From the IMG/VR virus record IMGVR_UViG_3300028114_000002: 38,389 nucleotides of DNA; one strand, given 5' to 3'. The DNA comes from a virus. The number at the start of each line of letters is the position of its first letter. The first letter of the stretch is position 1. Of this stretch, positions 1 to 36,645 are shown in pieces. The notes beneath the pieces are model-generated. The model was given only the letters and a program-made list of their open reading frames with translations, did not search any database and was not told where the DNA came from. The position numbers and the translations under genes are program-made.

Positions 1-127
1 ACGACGCGAGTGTCCGTCTCAGACGACATCTGCACTTGAGACGACCATCCGGTGATGGGGACGAGGAAAGATCCGCCAAAAACCGTGTTGTTGGCCCAAG
101 CCGTCCCTAACGTGCCATTGAAATAAT
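1..127. repeat. Terminal direct repeat, copy 1 (identical to 38263..38389)
   Basis: Read base by base: acgacgcgagtgtccgtctc...cgtgccattgaaataat occurs at 1..127 and again at 38263..38389. The repeat lies inside an open reading frame, so it behaves as a circular-closure or assembly overlap rather than a non-coding physical end. Confidence 0.95.
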
Positions 128-1070
128 TATCTGCCTGTTGGCTAATGATTGCGACCGTTGTTGGAGAACCTGTGGCTACGAGAATATTGCCTGACCATGG
201 GGTTTTAGATGCGGTAAGCGCCCCCACAACAGAGTTGTTTACGGCTCTAGTTATGTCCATAGAAAGGCCGCTTGGCAGCGAAATAGAAACTGGTGATCCA
301 GAATTTGTTCCAGAAGTAACTGTAAACATGACTTCAAGAGAATCACCTACGCGCCGATACTTGGCGATAGATGCAGAAACAGTTCCTAGGCCAACGTATG
401 TCGGAGTGTAGCTCTGCCAGTCCGTGACTGGCGTTCCCTGCGTGATGATCTGCGGAGAGACGCGGACGTCGGATAGCGCCATCGTGTAGGCGGATGCCGA
501 CGTGCTGCCAACGTGGATACAGAGGCGGTAGCTGGTCGAGTTAGAGGCTGCCTGGAAAGTGCCTCTCCAACTTTGTTGAACAGTGGTGCTTTCAATCGAA
601 GAAGGGGCCGGTTGAATCAAAATCGAGTTGGTAACATCGTAGATCCAGACCGAAAGATCGCTCGTGGCGTAAGTCCCGCTGACTACCTCGTAGGGGAACG
701 TAATTTGCAGGACTTTACCTTTGTCGGAATTATCAATCGTGAATGCATTCGAGACCCCGTTGCCTTGCCGGTTGTTTGCATCCTTGACGAGGTTGAAGTC
801 AGCTCCCGGACGAAGCGGCGTTGTGGTCGAGCGCGAGATCGCAAACGTAGGGCTACCGCCCGTGCAATCGACCGGAGAGCTGGCTGCCGAATCAGCATAC
901 CCCGCCCATCCGAGAGTATCTTTTCTAGCGTAGGCGTTTTTTATGTAGTTGCGGGAAGAGCTTGATCCGCTGTCGAGGAAATCTGCATCTAAAAACCTAG
1001 GGGTTTGCGCAAACGTAGTGCTCGCCCCAAGGGCTGCCGCTGCCAGTAAGAGGCGTTTGAAAAATTTCAT
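1..1070 (-). CDS. 5' (N-terminal, 356 codons) part of a junction-spanning gene: signal-peptide-bearing fibre or receptor-binding-like protein. Continues at 38262..37392 on the circle (646 aa total).
   Basis: Absent from the ORF track because it runs off the window edge. ATG is at 1070..1068, preceded by AGGAGA (1079..1074) just after the fibre-1 stop. I checked every plus-strand triplet starting at a position divisible by 3 from 1068 down to 3 and found no tta/cta/tca. The frame matches ORF 37392..38297 across the repeat (38262 is divisible by 3). The N-terminus MKFFKRLLLAAAALGASTTFA/QTP has the n-h-c pattern of a Sec signal peptide. It is followed by beta-rich, CBM/jelly-roll-like sequence. 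Confidence 0.85.
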   Translation of the reverse strand, partial: MKFFKRLLLAAAALGASTTFAQTPRFLDADFLDSGSSSSRNYIKNAYARKDTLGWAGYADSAASSPVDCTGGSPTFAISRSTTTPLRPGADFNLVKDANNRQGNGVSNAFTIDNSDKGKVLQITFPYEVVSGTYATSDLSVWIYDVTNSILIQPAPSSIESTTVQQSWRGTFQAASNSTSYRLCIHVGSTSASAYTMALSDVRVSPQIITQGTPVTDWQSYTPTYVGLGTVSASIAKYRRVGDSLEVMFTVTSGTNSGSPVSISLPSGLSMDITRAVNNSVVGALTASKTPWSGNILVATGSPTTVAIISQQADNYFNGTLGTAWANNTVFGGSFLVPITGWSSQVQMSSETDTRV

Positions 1071-1079
1071 ATCTCTCCT

Positions 1080-4000
1080 TTAGATTCCGTTACGAGCAAT
1101 TTCGACAACTGCGGCAAGACCCGCATCCCAACGAAGACGAATGATGGAGCCCGCTTGCCCGCGCCAATCCCCCTGCAGGAGGACGGTCGAGGATGCGGCT
1201 AGGTCACAGTAGTTTGCGTTCGAGGTCCCGAGGATTTCAATCTCAGCTCCGTCAACCATACTCGAGGTCGTGATCGTGAACGTCTGAGCCGAGCCCCCCG
1301 TGTACCTAAAGCGCTGTGCCGGAGAATTCGTGGGCGTAATCGAGGAGCCGGTGAAGTTCGACTGATCGGGCGTCTTTGCTCCGCCGGTAGATAGCACCAC
1401 ATCCCAGCGCGTATCCGTCGTGTTGTAGACGAGCAGTGCGCCCTCGTTGAGCTTCAGCACGAGGTCCCGTGCCTGCGGGCAACGGATACGGTTTGCGGAA
1501 GTAGATCCCGCCCCCTGATGGCTGATCGTCACATCTGCGGTAGCGGACGTGTTCACAACCCATAGCATTCGCGGCGAACCGCCCCCTGAAATCCCACCAA
1601 CTGTGCGTGCAGTGGCGGGAGCCAGACGGAACACGGTGATTCCCGTTGAGGTTACGTCATCGGTTGTGCCGGTCGCGGTCGAGTCGTCTACGTCGATAGC
1701 GAGGGTGCCGTCTAAGTGCAGTGTCTCAGCCGGGGATGCTTTGTTGACGCCCATCCGCGAGGTCGCAGTCAGTGTAAGCATTTCGACCGGAGTCGTTGAT
1801 GCGTCGGGCTTCACGAAGAATCCGAGATCGGCGCCCTTACCGTTGGTTGTGCCGACTCCGCGCAGGATGGCGCGGATGTAGCCTACCAGGCGAGTACTGG
1901 CCGAAGGGGAAGTGCCGTTGTTAAGCGAGAAGAATTGCAGAATTCCTGCGATGTCGCTTGCTGCCGGGCTTGCGCGGTTGTTGCCGAGTGCTAGTGCGCC
2001 GTAGGAGTTCGCACCTGTCGCGTCGCCCATCACGTTCACGCGGCCTTCGGTCGTAACCGCGGTGCCGATCGGATCATCGCTCGTCGGAGTGCTCCCGAGA
2101 GTTAGCCGGAAGTTTTTATACCAGCGGGCAATCTCGATGTTGTTCACCCGGAACGGGATTTTGAAATCATCGATCGTACCGAAGAACTTCTCAGCCAGCA
2201 CCGTGTTGCCATCGAGCGTCCAACCGGATCCGCCGCCAGAGCCAGAGCCAGATCCGCCCACCACCTGCCAGCGGCTTGATGCGGTCTCGTAGTAAAGAAT
2301 GACGGCGGCACCGTCGGCCATTGCTATGGCCGCGCCCGTTCCCGTGCGGATACGGTTTGCAGCGGTGCCGCCCGTGTCGTCGTTGAGGTTGACGGATGCG
2401 CCCGTGCGGTTGATGAGAACCAGGAACGTGGCATTTGGCGGCGCCGGAATCATGTCGATCGAAGTCAGCGACCCGTCGGTAACAAGCAAGCTCGTCTTGG
2501 TCGGAGTCGCAAGCGTGGCGTTTGCGCCGGTCGCGGCTGCGTCCGTCTGCTCAGATCCCTGAAGCGTTGCCAAGGCGCGCAGGGCTGCAACAAAGCTCTT
2601 AGCTCCGCCGAAACTCTGTGCCGCGGTGCTGACCGATCCGGGGTTGGTTGCGTCTGCCGGCTGAATCGTAAGGGTGTCTGCCACAAGCGTCGCGCCAGAC
2701 GTGCCTGGAGTAGACCCAAAAGTCGCAAGCGAGAGGGAGCTTCCGCCAGCACCTTGGAAACTGCGCCAAGTGCCGCTCGTCATACAGAAGAAAAAGACTT
2801 TGGAGCCACTGGCCAGCGCAAAGGCAGCGTCGGCGGCACCCGCGTCGATCGCCTCGCCCGAGGCCGGGAACACGTCGCAAGAGGCAGCGCCCGAGTTCTG
2901 CACGTAAAGCTGCATGCCCGCGACTGCCGCGGGGAGCTTGACTGAATCGTTTGCGGTGGCGCACACGCTCACGCGGTTTTGCTGTTTAGCAAGCTGGGTT
3001 GCGGAAGCCTGTCCGCCGCCCGCAAACGCGGTGATTGTGTCGGCAGCCGAGAACATCACGTAGGCTTGCGCAATGATGTTGTTTGCGAACGTCTTCACAC
3101 CCGCGATCGTTTGCGCGATGGCGGTGAGTAACCCCGGCTGGGATCCGTCTGCCGGCTGCAGGGTGAGGACTTGGCCTGAGAGCGAGGCGCCGTTTGCAGA
3201 GGGGGAGCTGCCGACGGCTGCAAGCGACACATCGCCTGAGTTCGTTCCCGCGATGTCAGCGTCACTAGAGAAAGTCAGCGAACGCGCGGCGTTTTTGAGA
3301 TCGATCGTGAGGTCACGATCGGCGTCCTGCGTGACGCTACTCGTGAAAATGAAGCGCGAGAACCAAGACGTGGACGTTTCTTTGATCGAAACACCCGTCA
3401 CGAATTTCTTCAAGCCCGCAATCAACTGCGTGAGAGTTGAGACGCCGCCGGGGTTGGTTGCATCTGCCGGCTCCATGTTTAGCACAGCACCAGAGAGCGT
3501 AAGGCCGTTTGCGTTCGGGGCCGTGCCAAATCCTTGCAGGGTGACGGTCGCGGGACCGGCAGGACCAACGGCGCCGGCAGGACCCGGGGGGCCTGCGATA
3601 CCCAAGTACTCGGACGGATCACGCGCCTGCACGCCGGTACCGTCATCTGAGATTGAGAGAACTTTACCGGCGTTGATTGCGAGGTCGGGGAAAGCCTTAT
3701 CCCGATCAGGCGAGGTGGAACCAAAAAGTAGCGCCCGCCGCATGCGGCCGACCACTTCCTGTACTTGCTGCACGATACGATCAAGCGTGCGCTCGTTCGT
3801 CTCAGGCGGGAAGATCCCCGTCGAAATGTAATCCGTTTCCTGTGTGACGGGCGTCACTCGACGAACGAGTACGCGCTGCGTGGCGGTCGGAGTCGAAACT
3901 GTGACTACCGCACTACCAGGGTCGCCGCCCGAGATTGAATACTGCCCGGGAGCTGTGAGCGTTGTCTCGGTGACTGCTGTCGGCACCGTGTAGTCGCGTA

Positions 4001-4109
4001 GGATGACTTGCACCTGCGAGTTGGCAGTGAACGCAAAGGGGATTGCGAATGAAGTCGTAACTCCGTCGCCCTGATAAATCTGCTCGGTCGTCGTGTTAGA
4101 GATCGTCAT
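1080..4109 (-). CDS. Tail fibre (1009 aa) with a T7 gp17-type N-terminal adaptor domain, a short collagen-like segment and three internal repeats
   Basis: The N-terminus IYQGDGVTTSFAIPFAF...VLVRRVTPVTQETDY resembles, from memory, T7 gp17 YQLDGSNRDFNIPFEYL...IELRRVTSTTDRLVDF. GIAGPPGPAGAVGPAGPA gives six G-X-Y triplets. A ~40-aa unit containing PAD(A/G)(T/S)(N/Q)PG...Q...G.K.F occurs three times. ATGA overlap with the upstream gene at 4106..4109. Confidence 0.85.
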   Translation of the reverse strand: MTISNTTTEQIYQGDGVTTSFAIPFAFTANSQVQVILRDYTVPTAVTETTLTAPGQYSISGGDPGSAVVTVSTPTATQRVLVRRVTPVTQETDYISTGIFPPETNERTLDRIVQQVQEVVGRMRRALLFGSTSPDRDKAFPDLAINAGKVLSISDDGTGVQARDPSEYLGIAGPPGPAGAVGPAGPATVTLQGFGTAPNANGLTLSGAVLNMEPADATNPGGVSTLTQLIAGLKKFVTGVSIKETSTSWFSRFIFTSSVTQDADRDLTIDLKNAARSLTFSSDADIAGTNSGDVSLAAVGSSPSANGASLSGQVLTLQPADGSQPGLLTAIAQTIAGVKTFANNIIAQAYVMFSAADTITAFAGGGQASATQLAKQQNRVSVCATANDSVKLPAAVAGMQLYVQNSGAASCDVFPASGEAIDAGAADAAFALASGSKVFFFCMTSGTWRSFQGAGGSSLSLATFGSTPGTSGATLVADTLTIQPADATNPGSVSTAAQSFGGAKSFVAALRALATLQGSEQTDAAATGANATLATPTKTSLLVTDGSLTSIDMIPAPPNATFLVLINRTGASVNLNDDTGGTAANRIRTGTGAAIAMADGAAVILYYETASSRWQVVGGSGSGSGGGSGWTLDGNTVLAEKFFGTIDDFKIPFRVNNIEIARWYKNFRLTLGSTPTSDDPIGTAVTTEGRVNVMGDATGANSYGALALGNNRASPAASDIAGILQFFSLNNGTSPSASTRLVGYIRAILRGVGTTNGKGADLGFFVKPDASTTPVEMLTLTATSRMGVNKASPAETLHLDGTLAIDVDDSTATGTTDDVTSTGITVFRLAPATARTVGGISGGGSPRMLWVVNTSATADVTISHQGAGSTSANRIRCPQARDLVLKLNEGALLVYNTTDTRWDVVLSTGGAKTPDQSNFTGSSITPTNSPAQRFRYTGGSAQTFTITTSSMVDGAEIEILGTSNANYCDLAASSTVLLQGDWRGQAGSIIRLRWDAGLAAVVEIARNGI

Positions 4110-10097: not shown

Positions 10098-10496
10098 CTA
10101 CCCCACTTCCCGGATTAGAATAGTCGCATCCTCGACGCAGGTAAAGCCAAGCCGGCGCGCAAAATGCTTTGCAATCTCAGGCTTTGTGAAGTGCATAACT
10201 GCCTTCATGTTGCAGTCGCGGGCTGCCACCATGAGATGATCGATCAGGTAGCCCAGCGCCTTAAATCCCATGATCCCAAGCGTCGGGTCCGTTGCCGTCC
10301 ATTCGAGCACGCCCAGACTCGAATTCGTGAGGTACAAAAACCCCACTGCCGCGGGCTTCCCCTCGATCTCAACAATCATCCCCGTCGCCGGCAGGAACTC
10401 TTGGGGAGGCACACCCTTTGCATCCCAGCCGTGCCCAATAAACCACCCCGAGATCAGCTCGTAATCGCTCGGTTGGTACTTACGCCAGGAGAGCAT
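10098..10496 (-). CDS. GNAT-fold (acetyltransferase-like) small protein, 132 aa
   Basis: The internal ATG at 10496 (MLSWRKYQPSDYEL...) forms an ATGA overlap with the stop of 10496..10933. The track's upstream extension to 10733 overlaps that gene out of frame. The C-terminal ...HFTKPEIAKHFARRLGFTCVED resembles the GNAT beta-alpha-beta core ending in LGF. Confidence 0.55.
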   Translation of the reverse strand: MLSWRKYQPSDYELISGWFIGHGWDAKGVPPQEFLPATGMIVEIEGKPAAVGFLYLTNSSLGVLEWTATDPTLGIMGFKALGYLIDHLMVAARDCNMKAVMHFTKPEIAKHFARRLGFTCVEDATILIREVG

Positions 10497-10933
10497 CAAC
10501 GCACCCGCGCCATGATGTTGTAGTTGCGCCGGTCCTCGCCGAAAGCCTTCAAAAGCCCTTCCGATGCAAACCCGAGAGTAGTCGCCCAACGGTAAGCCAT
10601 CGCCTCGCCCTCGAGCACGTAGGCCTGTACGCGGTGAAGCGTGAGCGCCTGCTCGTAGTCCTGGATCACGCTCAGCACGCCCTTGGTGAACTGCACGGGG
10701 CAGGTGTAGATGTGCTTTGAGAAGATAGCCCAAACTTCAGCCACCCCCGCCCACAGGACCGTGCCGCCGACTGCTCCCAGGCAGAGGTCGTCCTCGGTAT
10801 AGAGCGTGTGCGCAAAGTTATGCGGATGATCCATGAAGTGCTCTTTGGTGTTGATCCCGTTCTCGCCAAAGAAAACGCTGGTAGGTTCCAGGCCGTCGAG
10901 ATGCCGGGGGTCAAACTTTTTGCGCTTAATCAT
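10496..10933 (-). CDS. GNAT-fold-like protein at the T7 gp13 position (145 aa)
   Basis: Lies directly downstream of tubular protein B, as gp13 does in T7. ...LGAVGGTVLWAGVAEVWAIF...AMAYRWATTLGFASEGLLKAFGEDRRNYNIMARV resembles the gp13/DUF2833-type acetyltransferase fold, from memory. Confidence 0.5.
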   Translation of the reverse strand: MIKRKKFDPRHLDGLEPTSVFFGENGINTKEHFMDHPHNFAHTLYTEDDLCLGAVGGTVLWAGVAEVWAIFSKHIYTCPVQFTKGVLSVIQDYEQALTLHRVQAYVLEGEAMAYRWATTLGFASEGLLKAFGEDRRNYNIMARVR

Positions 10934-13253
10934 TGGTCACACCGCGGGCAAAGATGCCTTCGACTTCCAGGGGGAGAGGAAGGTCCTGGGCCACGATGAG
11001 GTTCAAGCGCTCGCTCCACCCCGACTGGAAGCCAAGGTGGCGATCGCCCGTGAACAGCGGAATCTCGGCATTGTTTACGAGATCCGGCGTGCGGAATTCG
11101 ATCGTCTCGAGCTCCGAGTCGTTGCTCCCAAACTTAGCGCCCACCGTGCGGTTGAAGCGGATCACGATGTCGTCGATTGATTTGTTCGCTCCCTGCGCGG
11201 ATCCAATCACAGATCCCAGGTTGATGTTGCTCGTCTTAAGAAGGCTCCGGTACTTGAGCCCCGCGATCAGCTCGGTTGCGTTGATGTCGAGCGTGATTTG
11301 TCCCGAGCCGTCTACCACTTTCTCACCATGGTAGATCCCGTCAGCAAGGCACGAAACCGTCTGCCCGATCAAATGCGAGAAGCCGGTGAAGACTTTCCCG
11401 GGGCTTCCGAGTGTCACGATTTTGGCGGAATCCGAGAAGATCGGTTTGTCGAGGTAGCTGGTAGAGTTGTTGTAAAGGTCTTCGAGCTCAAACTCTTTGT
11501 TGATCCGCTCGAGGTACGTGATGTCGGCACCGTTGATCGTGCGCCGGACAGCCAACCAAATGTCGTCGTGCGTGCCTTCCGCATTCGGCGCCACGCAGAA
11601 GGACAGAATCTTAGGCGGCGTTGCCTTGCTCGACTCGGTGAGCACCCCGCCCAGCTCATGCCAGTGGAAGGCGGCATAGCCCTGATCGCGGTCACGCGTG
11701 CACGCGTAGAATCCGCCGTTGCGATCAAGTACCCAGAGCATCCCGTTGAAGTGCTCTTGGTTAGAAATCTGCACGATCTCGGGGTTCACGTACGTGACGC
11801 GCTTTGCGAGCATCTTTTTCGGCATGTGCTCGGCATACGTCGAAATGTCCGCCGCCTTGTAGGAATCTTCCTGGAAGTTGAAAACAAATTCCCGGAGACG
11901 GCGCTTGTTGCGCGGGATGAATACAAGAGAGTTCCCTTGACGCGCAGGCATAATGAGTGCCCCGCCGTGGGCCGTCTCTGCCTGGAAGCCCACGTTCAGG
12001 GGGCCCAGCGTTTGCGAACTGTCAGGGTTATTTGAGATGAATTCGCGCCCAGTCGAACCAAGCTGCAGCGTCTTACCAGCGGACATCCACACGATCTGCG
12101 AGAGTTCGTTGGAAGTGAGGTTCACATCATACGGGTCATCGTTCGCGACGGTATTGGGGCTGTCGTCCACATACTTTGCTTGGCGCATGTCGCCCAGGTT
12201 TCCGATGCGGGAGGCCCACAAACCGTTCGGGCGAAAATAGTGGCTTCCGTAATAGAGGCGGTTCTCGTAAAACGAAATCACGCCGGGATTGCCGCGGCTG
12301 TTGGCCTTCACCGTCGAGTTAGAGACGCCCTCTTTCAGTCGCCAGTCAGAAAAACACCAGCGAACAGTGGCGCTCGTATCTCCCAGGGTCTTGAGCACCG
12401 TCGCGTTCACGCTGCTTGCAAGCCCGTTCGATGGCGATACCAGCGAGGTGATGAGCACAACACCCGTCGTAGAATTCGATGCGTTCGTGATCCGCATGGC
12501 GTGCCCCACCATGGATTCATTGTAGATCGTGATCGGAAACCCACCCGAGACCGTGGTGGCGGGGATCGTGATGTTGCCAGTGGTGGCCGAAGGCGTAACC
12601 TGGAATAGTCCGTTCGACGGGTTCTCAGGCAAAAACGGCCAGGACTTGGCTGCAACTGCGCTCGAGAAACCAGTAATCGAAGTGTTAGTTTGTCCCAGGG
12701 CGGAATACGCCCAGAACATAAACAGGCCTAGGTCCGTTGTCCCGTCGTATTGGATTGCAAACGGCGGATGATCCTTCTGCACGAAGAACATCGCGCGCCC
12801 AAACTGTGTGTACTGAATTTCGCGAAGCTGCTGCGCAGTCGAGAATCCTAGGAACTGTGCGGCACCTGAAAGAAGCGAAAATGGAACCGAAGTCGTCACC
12901 GCAAGCTGCGTGACCGTTCCATCAGAGTTCAGTCGGTAAGCGTCGATCCCCTTGGCGCCGGCAACCGCCGCCACTGTGCGCGTCGTAAACGCGAGTACGA
13001 TCGTAACCCCATCCTGCACAAACGGGATCAGCCGAACATTCGTCTCATCCTTGATGAATGAACCGACCGAGCTACCGTGCCCGCCTACGTACTGTGCGCC
13101 AGGGCGGCGCATAGCACCGCCTTGCGGGAGCACGAGCATGTTTGTGAGCTCTTCGCATGAGTTTTTGTAGGTCTCGAGATCAACGCGCGCCTGCGCACGA
13201 GGAGAGACTTCGCCCGCCAGGAAGTGGGCGATCTGCTCGCGGAATCGTGCCAT
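10926..13253 (-). CDS. Tail tubular protein B / nozzle (gp12-like, 775 aa)
   Basis: Size and synteny. VISFYENRLYYGSHYF and DDPYDVNLTSNELSQIVWMSAGKTLQLGSTGREFI resemble T7 gp12 INDVFFFRNRLGFLSGEN and DDPIDVAVSTNRIAILKYAVPFSEELLIWSDEAQFVL, from memory. Confidence 0.8.
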   Translation of the reverse strand: MARFREQIAHFLAGEVSPRAQARVDLETYKNSCEELTNMLVLPQGGAMRRPGAQYVGGHGSSVGSFIKDETNVRLIPFVQDGVTIVLAFTTRTVAAVAGAKGIDAYRLNSDGTVTQLAVTTSVPFSLLSGAAQFLGFSTAQQLREIQYTQFGRAMFFVQKDHPPFAIQYDGTTDLGLFMFWAYSALGQTNTSITGFSSAVAAKSWPFLPENPSNGLFQVTPSATTGNITIPATTVSGGFPITIYNESMVGHAMRITNASNSTTGVVLITSLVSPSNGLASSVNATVLKTLGDTSATVRWCFSDWRLKEGVSNSTVKANSRGNPGVISFYENRLYYGSHYFRPNGLWASRIGNLGDMRQAKYVDDSPNTVANDDPYDVNLTSNELSQIVWMSAGKTLQLGSTGREFISNNPDSSQTLGPLNVGFQAETAHGGALIMPARQGNSLVFIPRNKRRLREFVFNFQEDSYKAADISTYAEHMPKKMLAKRVTYVNPEIVQISNQEHFNGMLWVLDRNGGFYACTRDRDQGYAAFHWHELGGVLTESSKATPPKILSFCVAPNAEGTHDDIWLAVRRTINGADITYLERINKEFELEDLYNNSTSYLDKPIFSDSAKIVTLGSPGKVFTGFSHLIGQTVSCLADGIYHGEKVVDGSGQITLDINATELIAGLKYRSLLKTSNINLGSVIGSAQGANKSIDDIVIRFNRTVGAKFGSNDSELETIEFRTPDLVNNAEIPLFTGDRHLGFQSGWSERLNLIVAQDLPLPLEVEGIFARGVTND

Positions 13254-13823
13254 CTAGTACCTCGAATCAAGCCAGGAAGATGCTTCCGGCGCTTGCTGGG
13301 AACCACGTTGCTGGGCGGAGTACGACCGTGCCTCGCGCATTTTCTCTTTCCAGAGGGTCTGCATGTTAGCAGCGAGAGTAGCGTTCTGCGTAATCGTATA
13401 CGCCATCTCAGCCGCCATCTTGTACGCAAGTACCTCTTGGAAGGCCGGCTGGTAGCTGCTCGTGTCTGTGTTACGCCAGGCGTAGCGAACGGCAATCACA
13501 TCGGTGTAGTTCGTAAGCAGCTGACCGCTTTCGATGATCCAGTCCACCTCGTTAGGGATGTTGGAGTCAAAAACTCCAAGGCAATCCCCCGGGAGCTGAT
13601 ATGCACGCGTGTATTGAAAAGCCGGTACAAGGCCCGCAATTTGCGCGACTTGCGCGCGGCGGGTCGCAAAATTCCACGGCTGAGAGGCGAGCAGCGCGTC
13701 CCTGGAAATGAAGTACGTGTCCTTGCAAGTGCGCCCCTCGAGAGAATCATCCGAGAGCGACGTTATCCGCCGCGCTCGGAGCTTCGCTAAGGCCGCGTTA
13801 CAAATCTCGACTTCAGTTGCCAT
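13254..13823 (-). CDS. Tail tubular protein A / adaptor (gp11-like, 189 aa)
   Basis: EICNAALAKLRARRITSLSDDSLEGRTCKDTYFISRDALLASQPWNFA resembles T7 gp11 [21 protein letters not shown]...QSRGWTFN. I chose the ATG at 13823 (MATEVE) because GGGAGGGAG lies upstream of it; the track's GTG at 13841 sits inside that SD. Confidence 0.8.
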   Translation of the reverse strand: MATEVEICNAALAKLRARRITSLSDDSLEGRTCKDTYFISRDALLASQPWNFATRRAQVAQIAGLVPAFQYTRAYQLPGDCLGVFDSNIPNEVDWIIESGQLLTNYTDVIAVRYAWRNTDTSSYQPAFQEVLAYKMAAEMAYTITQNATLAANMQTLWKEKMREARSYSAQQRGSQQAPEASSWLDSRY

Positions 13824-13876
13824 TCGGCTGCTCCCTCCCACCCCTGGGTGGCTATGATATAGCCCAGAACGGAAAC

Positions 13877-14332
13877 TTAGTCTTGGACGATGTAGAAAGC
13901 GCCCTTGATGAGCACGTTGCCCACGTCGGTTGCTTCCGTCCAGGCCAGCACAACGTCCACTTCAGAAGCGAAACGCTTCAAGTGTCCGGCATGCCCTGCG
14001 GCAGGCTTAGCCAAAACCGCAGCGCCACCAGCGTCGTAGCCCGATCCAAAGGCATCGTCATCTGCGGCAACAACCGCATCCGCCGAAACAAGGTTGCCAA
14101 TCTTACAGATACCCGTGGTGCCCGTGGAAGGGATTTGAATATCCCAACCAACAACACGCGAGCCTGCAGGGAGGCGGAGAAGGGTCAGGGTATCCGCGAT
14201 AGCTTGGACCGCGGCGCCCGTGACTTCAAAGTAGAATGCACGCACGCGACCACGTACGTTGCCGATCTCTTGCTTGTCGAGACCGACACCAGACGATTGG
14301 GCCGTGAACAGAGAGGTATTGACGTTCGCCAT
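13877..14332 (-). CDS. Hypothetical beta-rich virion protein next to the capsid gene (151 aa). Possible decoration protein.
   Basis: Clean ORF immediately after the capsid gene, with AAGGAG upstream (plus strand ctcctt at 14341..14346). No motif recognised; function inferred from position only. Confidence 0.35.
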   Translation of the reverse strand: MANVNTSLFTAQSSGVGLDKQEIGNVRGRVRAFYFEVTGAAVQAIADTLTLLRLPAGSRVVGWDIQIPSTGTTGICKIGNLVSADAVVAADDDAFGSGYDAGGAAVLAKPAAGHAGHLKRFASEVDVVLAWTEATDVGNVLIKGAFYIVQD

Positions 14333-14351
14333 GAAAGTGGCTCCTTATGCT

Positions 14352-14385
14352 TAAAATCAAAGGGCCCCGGGGGACCACCCCCCGG
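14352..14385 (-). terminator. Hairpin plus T-rich tract after the capsid gene (leftward)
   Basis: CCGGGGG (14367..14373) pairs with CCCCCGG (14379..14385) around a 5-nt loop. On the minus strand it is followed by GGCCCTTTGATTTTAA. Confidence 0.45.
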
Positions 14386-14406
14386 AGCGTTACTGCAGGG
14401 CAAAAC

Positions 14407-15348
14407 TTAGGCTTCGGTGCAGAGGATACCGACGACTTTAGTCTCTTCCAGGCGAACAGCGCCACAAGTCATGCTCGCGTACACTTGCTTGGAGTAGGAC
14501 TTGTCGGCGCGCTCGTCGATCCGGCCTTTGATCTCGGAACCGCTCGCAAGAACGATACCGCTTTCGGCCCAAGCAAAACACCGGCGGGTGTTGTTGCCGT
14601 TACCCGTCGAGAGCGTGACCGCGCCCGTGGTGGTGTTGATCGAGGCAAGGAAGCCGCCAGCGCCGGCCGTACGCAAGAGTTGCGTGCGGTGGAACTTGAA
14701 GCCCATGAACGTGTCCACTTCGCCGTGCACAAGCGCCTTGATGGCGTTGTAATCGGCAGAGGTGACTTGGTTCTCGCCCAGGAGACCGTCGATCTGCTTC
14801 TGCGAAACCGCAATGTGCAGCATCTCGTTCTCGTCCACGTCGGCCTGCCCGAAGAGCGACTTGACCTTGATCAAGGTCGCGACGTTCAGGTTCGACACGG
14901 CCGTCGAAGCCACGGCACCGACGTACTGTGCTGCCAGTTGAGCTTGAGTGCTGTCGCCTTCTTTACCAGTGATGGCCGAGCCAAGAGCTGCGTCGATGAT
15001 CTCAAGATCCATCGCGCGGCCAAGAGCCCAGGCTGCCGACATCGCGTAGGGGCTGGTAGGATCGATGAGAGCGCGGATGCGATCTTCCTTGTCGATCAAG
15101 TCGGCCCATTCGTAGTCGTTCATCTTCACGCCACGACGGCTGTGATCCGAGTTCACCAAGGGGGTGTCGGAATGACGGCCGACTTTCTTGATGGCGCTCG
15201 TGGGTCCGAGGCGGTCGTAGAAATCGACTTCGGCGTTCTGGACTTCGTTGCGCACGAAGGGACGCAGACGCGAGCCCTTTTGTTGCGCGAGGTGGAAAAT
15301 GTTGTCAGAGAAGCCCTTTACAAAGGCTTGCGGGTACAGATTCGACAT
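14407..15348 (-). CDS. Major capsid protein (313 aa, presumed HK97 fold)
   Basis: Position after the scaffold gene, size, and strong AAAGGAG before the ATG (plus strand ctccttt at 15359..15365). Terminator-like hairpins on both sides suggest a highly expressed unit. Composition is typical of podovirus capsid proteins. Confidence 0.8.
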   Translation of the reverse strand: MSNLYPQAFVKGFSDNIFHLAQQKGSRLRPFVRNEVQNAEVDFYDRLGPTSAIKKVGRHSDTPLVNSDHSRRGVKMNDYEWADLIDKEDRIRALIDPTSPYAMSAAWALGRAMDLEIIDAALGSAITGKEGDSTQAQLAAQYVGAVASTAVSNLNVATLIKVKSLFGQADVDENEMLHIAVSQKQIDGLLGENQVTSADYNAIKALVHGEVDTFMGFKFHRTQLLRTAGAGGFLASINTTTGAVTLSTGNGNNTRRCFAWAESGIVLASGSEIKGRIDERADKSYSKQVYASMTCGAVRLEETKVVGILCTEA

Positions 15349-22383: not shown

Positions 22384-22638
22384 ATGAAATACCGATTTAA
22401 AACCACGTTGATAGCAACCTTGCTCGCAGGGAGCCTTGGGGTTTCCTCTTCTCCTGCAAATGCGATCGCGAAGCCGCGCATCTCCCTGGAAGATGCCGTC
22501 GAAAAGCTTCGTGTAAAGTATTCGATCATGGATGCATCCGAGAACATGCGTGCACGTCACAAGCAAGAACGAGCGGAACTAAAAGAGCGCCAAAAAACTG
22601 AGCGCGAATCTCTCAAGTTCCAATTGGGGCGCAAATGA
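22384..22638 (+). CDS. Small exported coiled-coil early protein (84 aa)
   Basis: MKYRFKTTLIATLLAGSLGVSSSPANA/IAKP has a signal-peptide pattern. The C-terminal part is K/E/R-rich and helical. Confidence 0.6.
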   Translation: MKYRFKTTLIATLLAGSLGVSSSPANAIAKPRISLEDAVEKLRVKYSIMDASENMRARHKQERAELKERQKTERESLKFQLGRK

Positions 22639-34680: not shown

Positions 34681-34993
34681 GTCAGAGAAGGCGTTTGCAG
34701 CGAGGGTCAGAAAAGAAATCGAGGCGATGCCCCGTACGTGGTGCTTTAAGCCCTTCACCGGCTCGGTACGTGGGATCCCGGATCTCATTTGCTGTGTGTC
34801 CGGGTGGTTTGTGTCGCTTGAGTTCAAGAAAGCCGGCGCTGCCAAGGACTCATCGAGAGAGAGGCTGCAGGAATATGTGGCCTCAAAGATTCGGTTTGCG
34901 GGGGCGCCCATTGCTGAGCACCGTGTGACCCCGGCTTCCTGGCCTGCGATTCGCGAGCGGCTTGTGCAAATGGCGGGAGAGACTTTCTCTTAA
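34667..34993 (+). CDS. VRR-NUC / PD-(D/E)xK nuclease (108 aa)
   Basis: EKAFAARVRKEIE...GIPDLICCV...VSLEFKK fits the E...PD...(D/E)xK pattern. The ATG at 34667 overlaps the polymerase end by 14 nt. Confidence 0.6.
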   Translation: MRRPESEKAFAARVRKEIEAMPRTWCFKPFTGSVRGIPDLICCVSGWFVSLEFKKAGAAKDSSRERLQEYVASKIRFAGAPIAEHRVTPASWPAIRERLVQMAGETFS

Positions 34994-35418
34994 AGCCTGC
35001 GGTAATCGTAGTAGTCTTTTGAGAAGCACTTGATTCCGCTCATTTTCCAGATGTCGTCAACTCCGATGCGCTCCTCGACTTCGACCCGCTTGATACAGGC
35101 ACCTAGGAAAGTGCGCATGCACTTGTACGTGTGGTGGAAAATGCAGGGAGCGTCCGCACAAAACAGGTAGCGCTTATCCGCAAACTTGCAGACGAAATCA
35201 GCACTGCGAAGCGTGCTACGCAGGAACGCGTCCTCTAGATCAAGCTTCCGGTACTCAAGCTTTAGGCAGTCGGTGCCTTTGACTTCCGAGCACCGGGTTG
35301 TGACAAGGCCCTTCTCGCTCTCGGATGCAATAAAGATTTGCCGCACGAGATCCGGGAACTGCGTGATGGATCTCTCGGTTGCACATGCGGTAAAGAAAAG
35401 GGCCAGCAGGTATTTCAT
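34990..35418 (-). CDS. Cysteine-rich lipoprotein (142 aa)
   Basis: MKYLLALFFTAC has a lipobox-like FTAC. There are eight further Cys in the mature part. Last gene of the leftward arm. Its stop shares TTAA (34990..34993) with the convergent VRR-NUC stop. Confidence 0.65.
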   Translation of the reverse strand: MKYLLALFFTACATERSITQFPDLVRQIFIASESEKGLVTTRCSEVKGTDCLKLEYRKLDLEDAFLRSTLRSADFVCKFADKRYLFCADAPCIFHHTYKCMRTFLGACIKRVEVEERIGVDDIWKMSGIKCFSKDYYDYRRL

Positions 35419-35699
35419 TTCGTGAGCTCAAGCCCAGCCGAGAGGTACTTGTTGAGCGCTGCCTCTTCGACCTTCAGTAGATCGTAGAGCTCAGCGATCA
35501 GAGCCATGTCCTGCTTATCTTGTTTCTTTTCTTCCGCCAAAATGTCCATCTGCACTTTACGCCAGCGCTCGATCGGCTCACGCTTGAGCTTGACCAGCCC
35601 CTTCTCGGCAAAAATCTCGATGATCGAGAGCGCCGTGTTGAGTGCCGTCATGCCCGGGATGAGCGAATCCGTTGCTGGCAGGGGTACAACAATGTCCAT
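35415..35699 (-). CDS. Hypothetical protein (94 aa), helical and charged
   Basis: ATGA overlap with the lipoprotein gene (35415..35418). No motif recognised. Confidence 0.5.
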   Translation of the reverse strand: MDIVVPLPATDSLIPGMTALNTALSIIEIFAEKGLVKLKREPIERWRKVQMDILAEEKKQDKQDMALIAELYDLLKVEEAALNKYLSAGLELTK

Positions 35700-35863: not shown

Positions 35864-36358
35864 CTAGGTTTTCCTAGCTACCCAAGGATCCAGGAACCCC
35901 ACAATGGAGAACCTTGGAAACCCTTTTAAGTTACGCTTGACACGATAGACCCCATCGCCGTCCGAATCAAGGCCGGAAGGGTTTACATTTCCCTCGACCG
36001 TCAAAAAATTACCCTTGCGATCGGGCGAGGTCTCAACGATGCCGGCATGCCCGCGCCCTGAGTCATCCGTTCGCTTCCAAATGATGATGCGCCCGGGGCT
36101 GGCCTCTTTTCGCTGGTAAAGCTTGTTGCGATTCCAGAGGGTGAGGCAGTGCTCTGAAAATTGGATGTGATCCAGGCCCGACTGCTCGGCTACTTTCTGC
36201 AGGACAGTGCACACAAACGCTGCACACCAAGGCTCGCCCTGCGCCACGCCGTCTACCGTCTTCTGGAAGCCTTCAATGATGTCGCCGGCATTGGCGCCTG
36301 ACTCGTGGACGCCGAGATAGATTCTAGCCATGTTCACGGTTGCTAGGTGCAGATCCAT
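35864..36358 (-). CDS. Endolysin, NlpC/P60-CHAP-type cysteine peptidase or amidase (164 aa)
   Basis: EPWCAAFV (catalytic Cys context), GRGHAGIV (His) and TVEGNVN match the TIGR02594-type phage cell-wall hydrolase pattern, from memory. TAATG overlap with the upstream gene. Confidence 0.75.
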   Translation of the reverse strand: MDLHLATVNMARIYLGVHESGANAGDIIEGFQKTVDGVAQGEPWCAAFVCTVLQKVAEQSGLDHIQFSEHCLTLWNRNKLYQRKEASPGRIIIWKRTDDSGRGHAGIVETSPDRKGNFLTVEGNVNPSGLDSDGDGVYRVKRNLKGFPRFSIVGFLDPWVARKT

Positions 36359-36645
36359 TAGCGTATCCGCTTCAGCTCTCCGCTGATCTCGCCCAGCTTA
36401 CGATTCATGTCTTGGAGGGTTGCCTGCAACCGTTCCTCTTTATCATCTAGCCGGGTTTCGATCACGCCAAATCGAGTGACACTTGCGGCCTGCGCCTCGG
36501 CCTGGGCGTACTTCAGCGTGTTGATGTCGGCTCTAAGCATCGTAAACCAAATCGTACACGGGATCACGACGGCGCTTAGAAACCAAACCAGGCCTCGGAG
36601 CAGTTGCCCCGAAACCCCTGCGATCTTGTTGTGCCATTCGGCCAT
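36358..36645 (-). CDS. Membrane-anchored coiled-coil protein (95 aa). Candidate i-spanin or holin/antiholin.
   Basis: TM segment GLVWFLSAVVIPCTIWFTML, followed by a heptad-like A/Q/E/L/K region. Directly upstream of the endolysin. Confidence 0.5.
   Translation of the reverse strand: MAEWHNKIAGVSGQLLRGLVWFLSAVVIPCTIWFTMLRADINTLKYAQAEAQAASVTRFGVIETRLDDKEERLQATLQDMNRKLGEISGELKRIR

What the first reader, a model, noticed from the sequence alone, without database searches (positions are those of the whole stretch)
1..1070. Hidden 646-aa gene across the contig junction: Sec signal peptide, CBM-like domain and two C1q-like domains
No ORF is listed for 1..1079 on the coding strand, yet the minus strand is open from the ATG at 1070 to position 1. 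I checked this codon by codon. Through the 127-bp repeat it is in frame with ORF 37392..38297, so on the circle this is one 1941-nt gene (complement of 37392..38262 joined to 1..1070).

The product starts with a textbook signal peptide (MKFFKRLLLAAAALGASTTFA/Q). It continues with beta-rich, carbohydrate-binding-like sequence and ends in two tandem C1q/TNF-like jelly rolls. A cleavable signal peptide is unexpected for a virion fibre, because fibres are assembled in the cytoplasm.

The protein may instead be exported to the envelope of the infected cell, for example as a receptor mask, for superinfection exclusion, or as an adhesin. Alternatively it is an unusual second receptor-binding protein. 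It sits between fibre 1 and the lysis genes.
Basis: partly seen in the sequence, partly recalled or inferred. Interest (0 to 1): 0.75.

Follow-up and report, generated by a model that had tools for sequence, protein, structure and literature searches.

The report
Tail-fibre lectin with an export signal
The gene is real and only looked hidden because a circular phage genome was cut inside it; it encodes a sugar-binding tail-fibre-type protein that, unusually, carries a bacterial export signal, so it probably folds outside the cytoplasm where virions are built.

Summary
Observation confirmed. The window ends share an exact 127-bp repeat. Joined, they give one 1941-nt minus-strand gene (646 aa). 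A contig from another sample, cut elsewhere, is 100% identical across the junction and has the same 646-aa gene called whole.

- a Sec-type signal peptide (aa 1-21, TFA|Q);
- a conserved but disordered peptide (aa 22-40);
- a CBM4/16/22-like beta-sandwich;
- a second beta-sandwich;
- two C1q/BclA_C jelly rolls.

The phage is a T7-architecture podovirus, nearest to HTVC010P-type pelagiphages. The core module is a very common phage receptor-binding module (6,518 clusters).

About 15% of 238 sampled members carry a signal peptide. It sits directly in front of the peptide that forms the extreme N-terminus of members without one. Two cysteine pairs in the CBM-like domain occur only in signal-peptide members (18 of about 36, against 0 of about 210). 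That argues independently for folding in an oxidising compartment.

Best reading: an exported, probably disulfide-bonded, detachable receptor-binding subunit of the fibre system. I favour it joining fibre 1 at lysis over it acting as a free receptor mask, but this is unresolved. C1q genes beside tail fibres are already known; the export signal is the new part.

The parts
1..127 (.). Left copy of the exact 127-bp terminal repeat. It is the overlap left by a circular assembly, not a biological repeat.
   Evidence: Identical to 38263..38389. It occurs once in the differently cut contig L032.
38263..38389 (.). Right copy of the same 127-bp repeat.
1..1070 (-). 5' part of the gene: codons 1-356 plus 2 nt of codon 357. 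The ATG is at 1070..1068 and the RBS AGGAG at 1079..1075.
   Evidence: Open frame read. The 646-aa product is called as one gene in L032.
37392..38262 (-). 3' part of the gene: the last base of codon 357 through codon 646, plus the TAA stop at 37394..37392. The stop overlaps the ATG of the next gene.
1008..1070 (-). Signal peptide, aa 1-21: n-region MKFFKR, h-region LLLAAAALGAS, c-region TTFA, predicted cleavage A21|Q22.
   Evidence: Read from the sequence. AF2 predicts a helix at aa 2-14. Homologues carry divergent signal peptides with the same properties.
951..1007 (-). Conserved N-terminal peptide of the mature protein, aa 22-40 (QTPRFLDADFLDSGSSSSR). It is a candidate docking or oligomerisation peptide.
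   Evidence: AF2 pLDDT is below 50 for aa 15-37. The same R-x-L-x-A-D-x-L-x-G...RNYI peptide forms the extreme N-terminus of short homologues without a signal peptide.
435..950 (-). Domain 1, aa ~41-212: a CBM4/CBM16/CBM22-like beta-sandwich. It holds the only two cysteines of the protein, C69 and C184.
   Evidence: AF2 pLDDT is mostly above 90. Foldseek TM 0.70-0.78 on the target. Cysteine analysis.
30..434 (-). Domain 2, aa ~213-347: a second beta-sandwich.
   Evidence: AF2 secondary structure. No specific family was assigned.
37857..38264 (-). C1q/BclA_C-like jelly roll A, aa 357-492. Coordinates are given on the right-hand copy of the repeat.
   Evidence: Pfam PF18573, 9.2e-12. Foldseek matches C1QL1 and caprin-2 C1q domains with TM 0.83-0.86.
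37395..37835 (-). C1q-like jelly roll B, aa 500-646.
   Evidence: Pfam PF00386, 7.3e-10. PDB sequence hits to adiponectin and C1q. Foldseek.
1080..4109 (-). Fibre 1 (1009 aa). It has a T7 gp17-like tail-attachment domain (aa 1-129), a shaft with repeated small beta domains, and a C-terminal small domain (aa ~953-1009). Related small domains end the proteins encoded just upstream of homologous C1q genes.
   Evidence: PHROG tail and tail-fibre families, 4e-23; Pfam Phage_T7_tail is weak. The C-terminal domain is shared with the upstream proteins in L005, L008, L001, L002 and L012.
36649..37392 (-). 247-aa protein with no family match and no signal peptide. Its start overlaps the stop of the C1q gene, and the two genes travel together.
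   Evidence: It is 72% identical in L012, directly downstream of the homologous gene, while no other L012 protein tested matches the window. Only 5 relatives turned up among 5.8 billion proteins. No Pfam, PHROG or PDB hit.
35864..36645 (-). Lysis genes downstream: a 95-aa protein with one transmembrane helix and a coiled coil (36358..36645, holin or i-spanin candidate), and a CHAP-domain endolysin (35864..36358).
   Evidence: Pfam CHAP, 5.8e-8. Sequences.

Best explanation
The gene encodes the detachable, distal receptor-binding (lectin) subunit of this podovirus's tail-fibre system, made as a Sec pre-protein.

Proposed sequence of events:
1. It is transcribed late together with fibre 1.
2. 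The pre-protein is exported through Sec and cleaved by signal peptidase I after Ala21.
3. It folds in the periplasm, where C69 and C184 in the CBM-like domain form a disulfide and the two C1q heads trimerise.
4. The mature N-terminal peptide (aa 22-40) then docks the protein onto a partner, most likely the C-terminal small domain of fibre 1. This happens when holin and endolysin action mixes cytoplasm and periplasm at lysis, so progeny virions acquire a CBM-plus-C1q tip.

Shown here:
- the gene itself;
- its domains;
- its position in the late operon;
- the signal-peptide features and their recurrence in homologues;
- the restriction of the cysteine pairs to signal-peptide members;
- homology of the core to the distal part of single-chain tail fibres.

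Inferred:
- actual export and cleavage;
- the disulfide;
- docking on fibre 1;
- joining of the virion after export.
For: Export:
- The N-terminus has a positive n-region, an h-region of about 12 residues and T-F-A before the predicted cleavage site. There is no lipobox and no twin arginine.
- Homologues from different phages carry signal peptides that differ in sequence but match in properties. L012 is 97-99% identical over aa 111-356 and 95-97% beyond, yet only 29% identical in the signal peptide.
- Cys at position 69, always paired with C184, occurs in 13 family members. A second pair at 78/106 occurs in 5. All 18 carry a signal peptide. None of about 210 domain copies from proteins without one has either pair (Fisher p about 2e-15).

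Fibre subunit:
- The core (aa ~40-646) aligns at 36-44% identity with more than 800 proteins. By exhaustive HMMER the N-terminal half hits 6,518 clusters.
- Many of these relatives are long fibres. In some, the module follows a gp17-like tail adaptor in the same chain, as in P0013 and L026.
- Signal-peptide homologues occupy the last slot of the tail module, just before the lysis genes, in podovirus-like and siphovirus-like contigs (L003, L005, L002). A member without a signal peptide holds the same slot in L008.
- The mature N-terminus of signal-peptide members reproduces the extreme N-terminus of short members without one. AF2 predicts it disordered, as docking peptides often are.
- The protein encoded just upstream ends in a related small domain in 5 of 6 loci first compared, and also in L012.
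- The gene is a mosaic of the kind seen in receptor-binding genes. Nucleotides 1-360 are lineage-specific; the rest is up to 100% identical to an otherwise unrelated phage.
- Fibre 1 has no CBM or C1q domain of its own.

Expression: the gap after the fibre gene is 9 nt, with no promoter-like or terminator-like site between the two genes.

Other virion proteins in these loci carry no signal peptide, so capsids and tails are assembled in the cytoplasm as usual.
Against: - I found no described case of a tailed-phage fibre subunit that passes through the periplasm and attaches at lysis. That step is unprecedented.
- About 85% of sampled family members have no signal peptide, so export is not needed for the fold.
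- SignalP was not available, and the AF2 coordinates could not be read, so the C69-C184 distance is unverified.
- The shared C-terminal small domain of the upstream proteins may be an ordinary fibre end or a recombination joint, not a docking site. L003's upstream protein did not match it.
- The host is unknown. It is inferred to have two membranes only because the closest portal relatives infect Proteobacteria and because lipoprotein genes lie near the lysis genes.
Confidence: 0.4

Rival explanations
1. The protein is exported but never joins the virion. It is a free periplasmic or released lectin that acts on the envelope of the infected cell. It could mask a receptor so that progeny are not lost on debris, exclude competing phages, or act as an adhesin.
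For: All the evidence for export applies equally. Phage proteins that act in the envelope have precedents: T4 antiholin RI has a cleavable signal peptide (PMC8385771), and T5 Llp, Cor, and lambda Lom and Bor are known from my own knowledge. This reading needs no new assembly step. One homologue's phage (L003) has an integrase, so expression from a prophage is conceivable there. The window encodes other exported proteins: a 142-aa lipoprotein and an 84-aa signal-peptide protein.
Against: - The gene is expressed with the late structural genes, 9 nt behind the fibre gene, and no integrase was found among the ORFs I scanned.
- A mask must bind the receptor the virion uses, yet fibre 1 has no related binding domain.
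- A soluble periplasmic lectin cannot reach surface epitopes before lysis. After lysis it would also compete with progeny for fresh hosts.
- This reading does not explain why the mature N-terminus copies that of members without a signal peptide.
- It does not explain why the gene fills the receptor-binding slot in several phage backbones.
- In L012 and L002 the upstream fibre-like protein carries a signal peptide as well.
Confidence: 0.3
2. The hydrophobic N-terminus is not used for export. The protein stays in the cytoplasm and assembles as an ordinary second receptor-binding protein on fibre 1, with aa 1-21 serving as an attachment or folding helix.
For: All the evidence for a fibre subunit applies. 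This is the conventional assembly route. No signal-peptide predictor could be run.
Against: An attachment helix should be conserved in sequence. Instead only the signal-peptide properties are kept, including the small residues at -3 and -1, while the sequence turns over completely. The segment is added in front of at least three different N-terminal types that also occur without it. Cysteine pairs restricted to signal-peptide members are hard to explain in a reducing cytoplasm.
Confidence: 0.12
3. The protein is a periplasmic accessory of the lysis cassette. It could sense the envelope or a superinfecting phage, as an antiholin does, or help breach the envelope by binding peptidoglycan or outer-membrane glycans.
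For: It lies directly upstream of a lysis module: a 95-aa single-pass membrane protein and a CHAP endolysin. T4 RI is a periplasmic signal-peptide protein that controls the holin (PMC8385771).
Against: Placing tail-fibre genes just before lysis genes is simply the usual phage gene order. The core is homologous to the tips of fibres. The 646-aa four-domain lectin architecture is unlike any known antiholin or spanin. The co-transferred partner is the 247-aa gene, not the holin or endolysin.
Confidence: 0.05

Closest known systems
C1q-domain putative receptor-binding genes next to the tail fibre in HTVC010P-type pelagiphages and other uncultured phages (Mizuno et al. 2014, PMC3909814; Bellas et al. 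2020, PMC7468147)
   Same: The phage backbone type is the same: the portal is 45% identical to HTVC010P-type phages. The position just downstream of the gp17-like fibre gene is the same, as are the C1q jelly-roll head and the hypervariable, exchangeable character.
   Different: Those papers report no signal peptide. The C1q proteins of the isolate HTVC203P (gp41, gp42) are small (166 and 279 aa) and lack one. Here the protein also has a CBM-like domain, a second sandwich, two tandem C1q domains, a signal peptide and cysteines linked to it.
C1q/TNF superfamily heads: Bacillus anthracis BclA C-terminal domain (PF18573), C1QL and caprin-2 C1q domains (PF00386)
   Same: Pfam hits are above the curated cut-offs. 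The fold matches with TM 0.83-0.86. These heads are normally trimeric and extracellular.
   Different: This protein has no collagen-like stalk, and it has two heads in tandem in one chain. Sequence identity to the structural matches is only about 16-20%. It is phage-encoded.
T2/T6-type gp38 tip adhesin and KP32-type dual receptor-binding systems, in which a second protein docks on the first through a short N-terminal peptide (my own knowledge)
   Same: The working analogy is a separate polypeptide that supplies the receptor-binding tip of a fibre whose shaft is encoded by the gene upstream. Both have a short N-terminal peptide in place of a full attachment domain.
   Different: There is no sequence or fold relationship. 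Those proteins have no signal peptide and assemble in the cytoplasm.
Exported phage envelope proteins: T5 Llp, Cor, T4 Imm/Sp (my own knowledge) and T4 antiholin RI (PMC8385771)
   Same: They are phage-encoded, use the host export machinery and act in the envelope of the infected cell.
   Different: They are small and unrelated to receptor-binding proteins. They are expressed early or from the prophage, and several are lipoproteins. None carries a fibre-tip lectin module.
Bdellovibrio 'mosaic adhesive trimer' fibre proteins (my own knowledge; not examined here)
   Same: They are fibre-like trimeric adhesins with variable tip domains that are exported by the cell.
   Different: They are cellular proteins of a predator, not phage genes. 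The only Bdellovibrionales hit found here (L007) lies on a phage-like stretch and has no signal peptide.

Membership tests
C1q/TNF-like jelly-roll domain (Pfam PF00386 C1q, PF18573 BclA_C) | Profile match above the curated gathering score | tested here: met
   BclA_C scores 45.4 bits (cut-off 38) at aa 373-492. C1q scores 39.6 bits (cut-off 23.7) at aa 514-617.
C1q/TNF-like jelly-roll domain (Pfam PF00386 C1q, PF18573 BclA_C) | Compact beta jelly-roll fold that superposes on solved C1q heads | tested here: met
   The AF2 model has mean pLDDT 83.6. Foldseek TM on the target is 0.83-0.86, rmsd 2.1-2.5 A, to C1QL1, C1QL3 and caprin-2 C1q.
C1q/TNF-like jelly-roll domain (Pfam PF00386 C1q, PF18573 BclA_C) | Trimer formation | not testable with these tools
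   Only monomer prediction was available.
C1q/TNF-like jelly-roll domain (Pfam PF00386 C1q, PF18573 BclA_C) | Collagen-like Gly-X-Y stalk before the head, typical of C1q and BclA proteins but not required by the domain | tested here: not met
   The 646-aa sequence has no Gly-X-Y run. A short GPPGPAGAVGPAGPA run is present in fibre 1 instead.
Sec-dependent, signal peptidase I-cleaved signal peptide | Positive n-region, uncharged h-region of ~10-15 residues, small residues at -3 and -1, no lipobox Cys, no twin arginine | tested here: met
   MKFFKR / LLLAAAALGAS / TTFA|Q. Besides the 142-aa lipoprotein, an 84-aa early ORF and a short ORF that is probably spurious, it is the only ATG-started ORF of 60 aa or more on the circle with a positively charged, hydrophobic N-terminus.
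Sec-dependent, signal peptidase I-cleaved signal peptide | Score from a trained predictor (SignalP or DeepTMHMM) | not testable with these tools
   No such predictor was on hand. The calls rest on a crude rule set plus inspection by eye.
Sec-dependent, signal peptidase I-cleaved signal peptide | Function conserved while sequence drifts | tested here: met
   L012 is 29% identical in aa 1-21 but 95-99% identical from aa 111 on, and keeps the n/h/c layout. Equivalent signal peptides occur in P0016, P0019, P0023, P0062, P0075, P0117, P0132 and others.
Sec-dependent, signal peptidase I-cleaved signal peptide | Signature of folding in an oxidising compartment (paired cysteines) | tested here: met
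   The C69+C184 pair (13 sequences) and the C78+C106 pair (5 sequences) occur only in members with a signal peptide: 18 of about 36 against 0 of about 210. The 3-D proximity of the pairs is not verified.
Sec-dependent, signal peptidase I-cleaved signal peptide | Experimental export and cleavage | not testable with these tools
   Needs an experiment.
Phage tail fibre / receptor-binding protein | Encoded in the tail module, next to other fibre genes | tested here: met
   The gene starts 9 nt downstream of the gp17-like fibre gene, after the tail tube and internal virion protein genes. Homologues hold the same slot in L003, L005, L008 and MW202898.
Phage tail fibre / receptor-binding protein | Homology to the distal part of proteins that carry a recognised tail-attachment domain | tested here: met
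   Long homologues combine a gp17-like N-terminus with this core (P0013; L026). PHROG 13989 'virion structural protein' hits at 1.8e-13.
Phage tail fibre / receptor-binding protein | Own N-terminal virion-attachment domain | tested here: not met
   Only 19 residues separate the predicted cleavage site from the CBM-like domain. Attachment, if any, must go through that peptide or through a partner.
Phage tail fibre / receptor-binding protein | Presence in virions and a role in adsorption | not testable with these tools
   The phage is uncultured. No isolate in the 50,697-record phage collection carries a close homologue.
Carbohydrate-binding module (CBM4/16/22-like beta-sandwich) | Fold similarity to solved CBMs | tested here: met
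   The model of aa 38-356 has pLDDT 88.8. Foldseek gives E of 1e-6 to 1e-4 and TM on the target of 0.70-0.78 to CBM16, CBM4-2 and CBM22.
Carbohydrate-binding module (CBM4/16/22-like beta-sandwich) | Sequence membership of a curated CBM family | tested here: not met
   No Pfam CBM family matches, even at E of 1 or below. 'CBM-like' is a statement about the fold only.
Receptor-masking or superinfection-exclusion proteins (Llp, Cor type) | Lipoprotein signal, early or prophage expression, and homology to known members | tested here: not met
   There is no lipobox. The gene sits in the late operon with no promoter-like site of its own. No integrase was found among the ORFs scanned. No family match of that kind appeared in Pfam or PHROGs; PADLOC was not searched.

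The most novel reading that the evidence does not exclude
A sizeable minority (about 15% of those sampled) of a very widespread phage receptor-binding module is routed through the Sec pathway. In these phages the tip of the tail fibre, and in some (L012, L002) apparently the whole fibre, would fold and form disulfides in the periplasm. It would be mounted on cytoplasm-built virions only when the compartments merge at lysis. That would be a two-compartment assembly pathway not described for tailed phages.
Probability: 0.3. Interest if true: 0.85.

Novelty: new variant of a known kind. Interest (0 to 1): 0.6.

Why it matters
Tail fibres are taken to be made and mounted in the cytoplasm. A recurrent signal peptide on fibre-type receptor-binding proteins is hard to square with that, especially with cysteine pairs that appear only when the signal peptide is present.

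Two outcomes are possible. Some phages may finish their host-recognition apparatus outside the cytoplasm. Or they may export soluble copies of receptor-binding modules for another purpose.

Either outcome affects:
- how receptor-binding proteins are predicted from metagenomes;
- how such proteins should be expressed for engineering, since periplasmic expression and DsbA may be needed;
- how phage-host recognition is modelled.

It also gives a simple rule that can be tested on thousands of sequences. The practical lesson is smaller: circular contigs should be rotated before calling genes.

Tried and rejected
- **Stop-codon readthrough fusing fibre 1 to the C1q protein.** The two ORFs are in the same frame, separated by TAA plus 9 nt. 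The spacing is out of frame in L002, L003 and L005, so I treat it as chance.
- **Prophage moron or lysogenic conversion gene.** No integrase was found among the ORFs scanned in the window, and the gene has no promoter-like site of its own.
- **Cellular origin, as a bacterial adhesin captured by the phage.** A scan of 185,579 species genomes with one degenerate peptide pattern gave only 2 hits. One (L007) is demonstrably phage-like; the other (L006) looks so only from its ORF sizes.
- **Searching with aa 1-218 alone to enlarge the signal-peptide sample**. It returned only 13 short fragments. The exhaustive representative search served better.
- **Looking up the 98%-identical P0001** to see its 104-kb contig failed, as it is not on record. 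I did not pursue the 104-124-kb contigs, so a prophage state in some sample is not excluded.
- **An NJ tree of the core** to count independent gains of the signal peptide. It is star-like and has no support values. It only suggests that signal-peptide members are scattered.
- **The 247-aa partner protein.** No Pfam, PHROG or PDB match, and only 5 relatives. Its function stays open.
- **Literature.** Six searches found no report of Sec signal peptides on tail-fibre or C1q receptor-binding proteins. The library is incomplete, so absence there is weak evidence.
Full report
**1. The observation**

The first 127 bases of the window are identical to the last 127. Trimming one copy gives a circle of 38,262 bp. 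On the minus strand, 37392..38262 joined to 1..1070 is a 1941-nt frame with no internal stop, encoding 646 aa. The start ATG at 1070 follows AGGAG. It lies 9 nt after the TAA of the upstream 1009-aa gene.

Contiguity does not rest on the repeat alone. A contig from another sample (JGI 3300028044, 38,399 bp, locus L032) is cut at a different place and is 100% identical to the window over 11.6 kb spanning the junction. Its gene caller gives the same 646-aa protein, 646 of 646 residues. The same phage occurs on 19 contigs from several samples.

A 127-bp overlap is what assemblers with a largest k-mer of 127 leave on circular contigs (my own knowledge). The gene was 'hidden' only by the choice of cut site.

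**2. The phage**

The minus-strand late region encodes, in order:
- terminase;
- a T7-type portal (PF12236, 1.9e-146);
- scaffold, major capsid protein, tail tube A and B, and internal virion proteins;
- a 1009-aa fibre with a T7 gp17-like N-terminal attachment domain;
- the 646-aa gene;
- a 247-aa unknown;
- a 95-aa single-pass membrane protein;
- a CHAP endolysin;
- a 94-aa protein;
- a 142-aa lipoprotein.

The plus strand encodes DNA polymerase A, an SNF2 helicase and a D5-type primase. None of the ORFs I scanned is an integrase.

The portal is closest to HTVC010P-type pelagiphages (45% identity). Next come Bordetella BPP-1 and the Vibrio VP2 group. A proteobacterial host with two membranes is therefore likely. 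This is an inference.

**3. The protein**

Pfam finds BclA_C (aa 373-492) and C1q (aa 514-617), both above their curated cut-offs. An AF2 model built on 61 homologues has mean pLDDT 83.6. It shows:
- an N-terminal helix (aa 2-14);
- a low-confidence stretch (aa 15-37);
- four beta domains.

The two C-terminal domains superpose on C1QL1, C1QL3 and caprin-2 C1q heads with TM 0.83-0.86. A separate model of aa 38-356 has pLDDT 88.8. It places domain 1 next to CBM16, CBM4-2 and CBM22 modules with TM 0.70-0.78.

No curated CBM family matches by sequence.

**4. Is the signal peptide real?**

No trained predictor was available, so I used three independent lines.

(a) Form. The N-terminus is MKFFKR / LLLAAAALGAS / TTFA|Q. 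It has no lipobox and no twin arginine.

(b) Conservation of properties without conservation of sequence. Homologues from other phages start MKQFLRLLLANLLLTTHAFA|G, MKLLQILFALVLTASAFG|L, MKKLLKLLALIPSLAFA|Q and MKHLILSGLFLLQTLLSSAPSAFA|V. In contig L012 the protein is 97-99% identical over aa 111-356 and 95-97% beyond. Its first 21 residues are only 29% identical (MKKILGLLLLVGSVASAS...), yet they keep the same layout.

(c) Cysteines. The mature protein has exactly two, C69 and C184, both in domain 1. I examined 238 family sequences. About 36 (15%) carry a signal peptide.
- Cys at position 69, always together with C184, occurs in 13 sequences.
- A different pair, at 78/106, occurs in 5.
- All 18 carry a signal peptide.
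- None of about 210 domain copies from proteins without one has either pair (Fisher p about 2e-15).
- C184 alone is common in members without a signal peptide.

Gaining a partner cysteine only when a signal peptide is present is what folding in an oxidising compartment predicts. The caveats are that sequences are not fully independent, my signal-peptide calls are rule-based with manual correction, and the 3-D proximity of the pairs could not be checked.

**5. What kind of protein is it?**

The core is a very common phage module. The full protein found 892 relatives among the 8,000 candidates scored. Exhaustive HMMER with aa 1-356 hit 6,518 clusters at 50% identity, 2,580 of them below 1e-30.

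Many relatives are long proteins in which the same core follows fibre shafts. In some it follows a gp17-like tail adaptor in the same chain (P0013; L026).

All the genomic contexts I examined in detail are phage-like. A pattern scan of 185,579 species genomes gave only two hits. One (L007) is demonstrably a phage-like stretch. I judged the other (L006) only from its ORF sizes.

Signal-peptide members sit at the end of the tail module, before the lysis genes, in three different backbones:
- L003, a podovirus organised like this one, where the gene follows a gp17-like fibre gene;
- L005, siphovirus-like, with the order tape measure candidate, 257 aa, 470 aa, 221 aa, then the signal-peptide protein;
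- L002.

In L008, which has a siphovirus-like tail module of similar gene sizes and order, a member without a signal peptide fills the same slot.

C1q genes next to the fibre gene in HTVC010P-like pelagiphages have already been described and read as receptor-binding proteins (PMC3909814; also PMC7468147). The C1q proteins of the isolate HTVC203P have no signal peptide.

**6. The signal peptide is a modular add-on**

After the predicted cleavage site, signal-peptide members read x(3-4)-R-x-L-x-A-D-x-[LIV]-x-G-x(4)-RNYI. Short members without a signal peptide begin M-x(3-5)-R-x-[LI]-x-A-x-x-[IL]-x-G-x(4)-RNYI. The mature exported protein is therefore the equivalent of the cytoplasmic short form.

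The same holds for a second N-terminal type. Compare MPATIFSG..VK.LK with signal peptide|DAVIFSGSDVKTLK.

It also holds for a third type. The protein upstream in L012 reads signal peptide|AVTVYMNGSAYSIPQKNERGWGD. Members without a signal peptide start MSTTITFNGTSYSVPATGDENW.

In L012 and L002 both the upstream fibre-like protein and the C1q protein carry signal peptides. The portal, capsid and tail-tube proteins do not. The 917-aa 'caprin-2 domain protein' of MW202898 probably also starts with a signal peptide, at its Met12.

**7. Links to the neighbouring genes**

The protein encoded just upstream of the C1q gene ends in a related small domain of 60-90 aa. This was seen in 5 of the 6 loci first compared, and also in L012. 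It holds whether or not the C1q protein has a signal peptide.

The same small domain recurs inside fibre 1. It also recurs in the N-terminal extensions of long family members. That pattern fits a fibre that has been split into a shaft gene and a tip gene.

Window and L012 share only this gene and the 247-aa gene after it, which is 72% identical at the protein level. No other L012 protein tested matches the window. Within the gene:
- nucleotides 1-360 are 53-71% identical;
- nucleotides 361-1080 are about 100% identical;
- the remainder is 77-100% identical.

A lineage-specific N-terminus joined to an exchanged distal part is the classic mosaic of receptor-binding genes.

**8. Mechanism**

I consider export, cleavage and oxidative folding likely, at about 0.8. 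What happens afterwards is inferred.

I favour, at 0.4, that this is the tip subunit of the fibre system and that it joins fibre 1 when holin and endolysin action merges cytoplasm and periplasm. The reasons are:
- fibre 1 has no lectin domain of its own;
- the gene is co-expressed with fibre 1, with a 9-nt gap and no promoter or terminator between them;
- the mature N-terminal peptide is conserved yet predicted disordered;
- the gene fills the receptor-binding slot in several backbones;
- it shows receptor-binding-type mosaicism.

Free fibres attach spontaneously to fibreless T4 and T7 particles in vitro (my own knowledge), so the step is physically plausible. It is nevertheless unprecedented.

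The rival I rate at 0.3 is an exported protein that never enters the virion: a mask, decoy or adhesin. It needs no new assembly step and has precedents among exported phage proteins, such as T4 RI (PMC8385771). It fits poorly with late expression in a phage where I found no integrase. It also fits poorly with the lack of a homologous binding domain on the virion, and with the retained N-terminal peptides.

A cytoplasmic role for the hydrophobic N-terminus (0.12) conflicts with the sequence turnover and the cysteine pattern. A role in lysis control (0.05) has only gene position in its favour.

**9. Novelty and score**

The gene, the C1q head and its position beside the fibre gene are a known kind. 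The following were not found in the literature I could search:
- the Sec signal peptide;
- its recurrence as a modular prefix on several fibre N-terminal types;
- the cysteine pairs restricted to signal-peptide members.

I rate this a new variant of a known kind, with interest 0.6. The anomaly is real and can be tested. Its mechanistic meaning is still open, and the 'hidden gene' part is an artefact.

Noticed in passing
window 22384..22638 (+): An 84-aa early-region ORF has a textbook signal peptide (MKYRFKTTLIATLLAGSLGVSSSPANA|IAKP) and no Pfam match. It would be a second exported phage protein, expressed from the opposite, early arm.
   Followed up: partly
window 34990..35418 (-), with 35415..35699 (-): A 142-aa cysteine-rich lipoprotein (MKYLLALFFTAC...) overlaps by 4 nt the end of a 94-aa coiled-coil protein. 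This could be a spanin pair, but the lipoprotein is unusually large for an o-spanin. It could instead be an Llp- or Cor-like envelope protein.
   Followed up: no
window 36649..37392 (-); L012 11878..12597: The 247-aa protein translationally coupled to the C1q gene is co-transferred with it between otherwise unrelated phages (72% aa identity). Only 5 relatives exist among 5.8 billion proteins, and no family or structure matches. It may be a dedicated chaperone or partner.
   Followed up: partly
window 1..1070 and 37392..38389 compared with L012 9944..11878: Sharp mosaic boundary inside the gene. Nucleotides 1-360 are 53-71% identical, nucleotides 361-1080 about 100%, and nucleotides 1531-1710 drop to 77-83% within the second C1q head. 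This indicates recent recombination between different phage backbones.
   Followed up: yes
window 1080..4109 (-), fibre 1: Fibre 1 contains a short collagen-like run (GPPGPAGAVGPAGPA, aa ~173-187). It has three copies of a motif of the form '...ANG.[ST]LSG.VL...PAD..[NQ]PG...'. It also has repeated small beta domains (aa ~495-618, ~811-870, ~953-1009). Related small domains end the proteins upstream of C1q genes in L001, L002, L005, L008 and L012.
   Followed up: partly
window 1071..1082: The fibre 1 ORF and the C1q ORF are in the same reading frame, separated only by TAA plus 9 nt (AGGAGAGAT). Readthrough would fuse them. The arrangement is not conserved in L002, L003 or L005, so it is probably chance.
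   Followed up: yes
L012 8607..9944; L002 7983..9992; L001 (MW202898.1) 35766..38486: Other fibre-like proteins also carry signal peptides. These include the proteins upstream of the C1q gene in L012 and L002; the L002 protein matches PHROG tail-fibre families. The GenBank 'caprin-2 domain protein' of MW202898 probably starts 11 codons downstream of its annotated start, with MFNKILIAIVFIITCLNAFS|DG.
   Followed up: partly
P0134 (3418 aa), P0140, P0212 (representative search): Some very large proteins contain the CBM-like plus sandwich module several times (7 matched stretches in P0134). I did not examine their contexts.
   Followed up: no
L003 12487..12912 and 12899..14434: In the related podovirus-like contig, the M15 peptidase endolysin has an N-terminal signal or SAR-like segment. 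It is followed by a 511-aa papain-like (Peptidase_C1) protein, an unusual companion for a lysis cassette.
   Followed up: no
window 10098..10933 (-): Two overlapping ORFs (211 aa with a TTG start, 145 aa with an ATG start) lie between the tail tube B gene and the internal virion protein genes. Only the 145-aa ORF matches phage families (phrog_4177, phrog_308). The longer one is probably spurious.
   Followed up: partly
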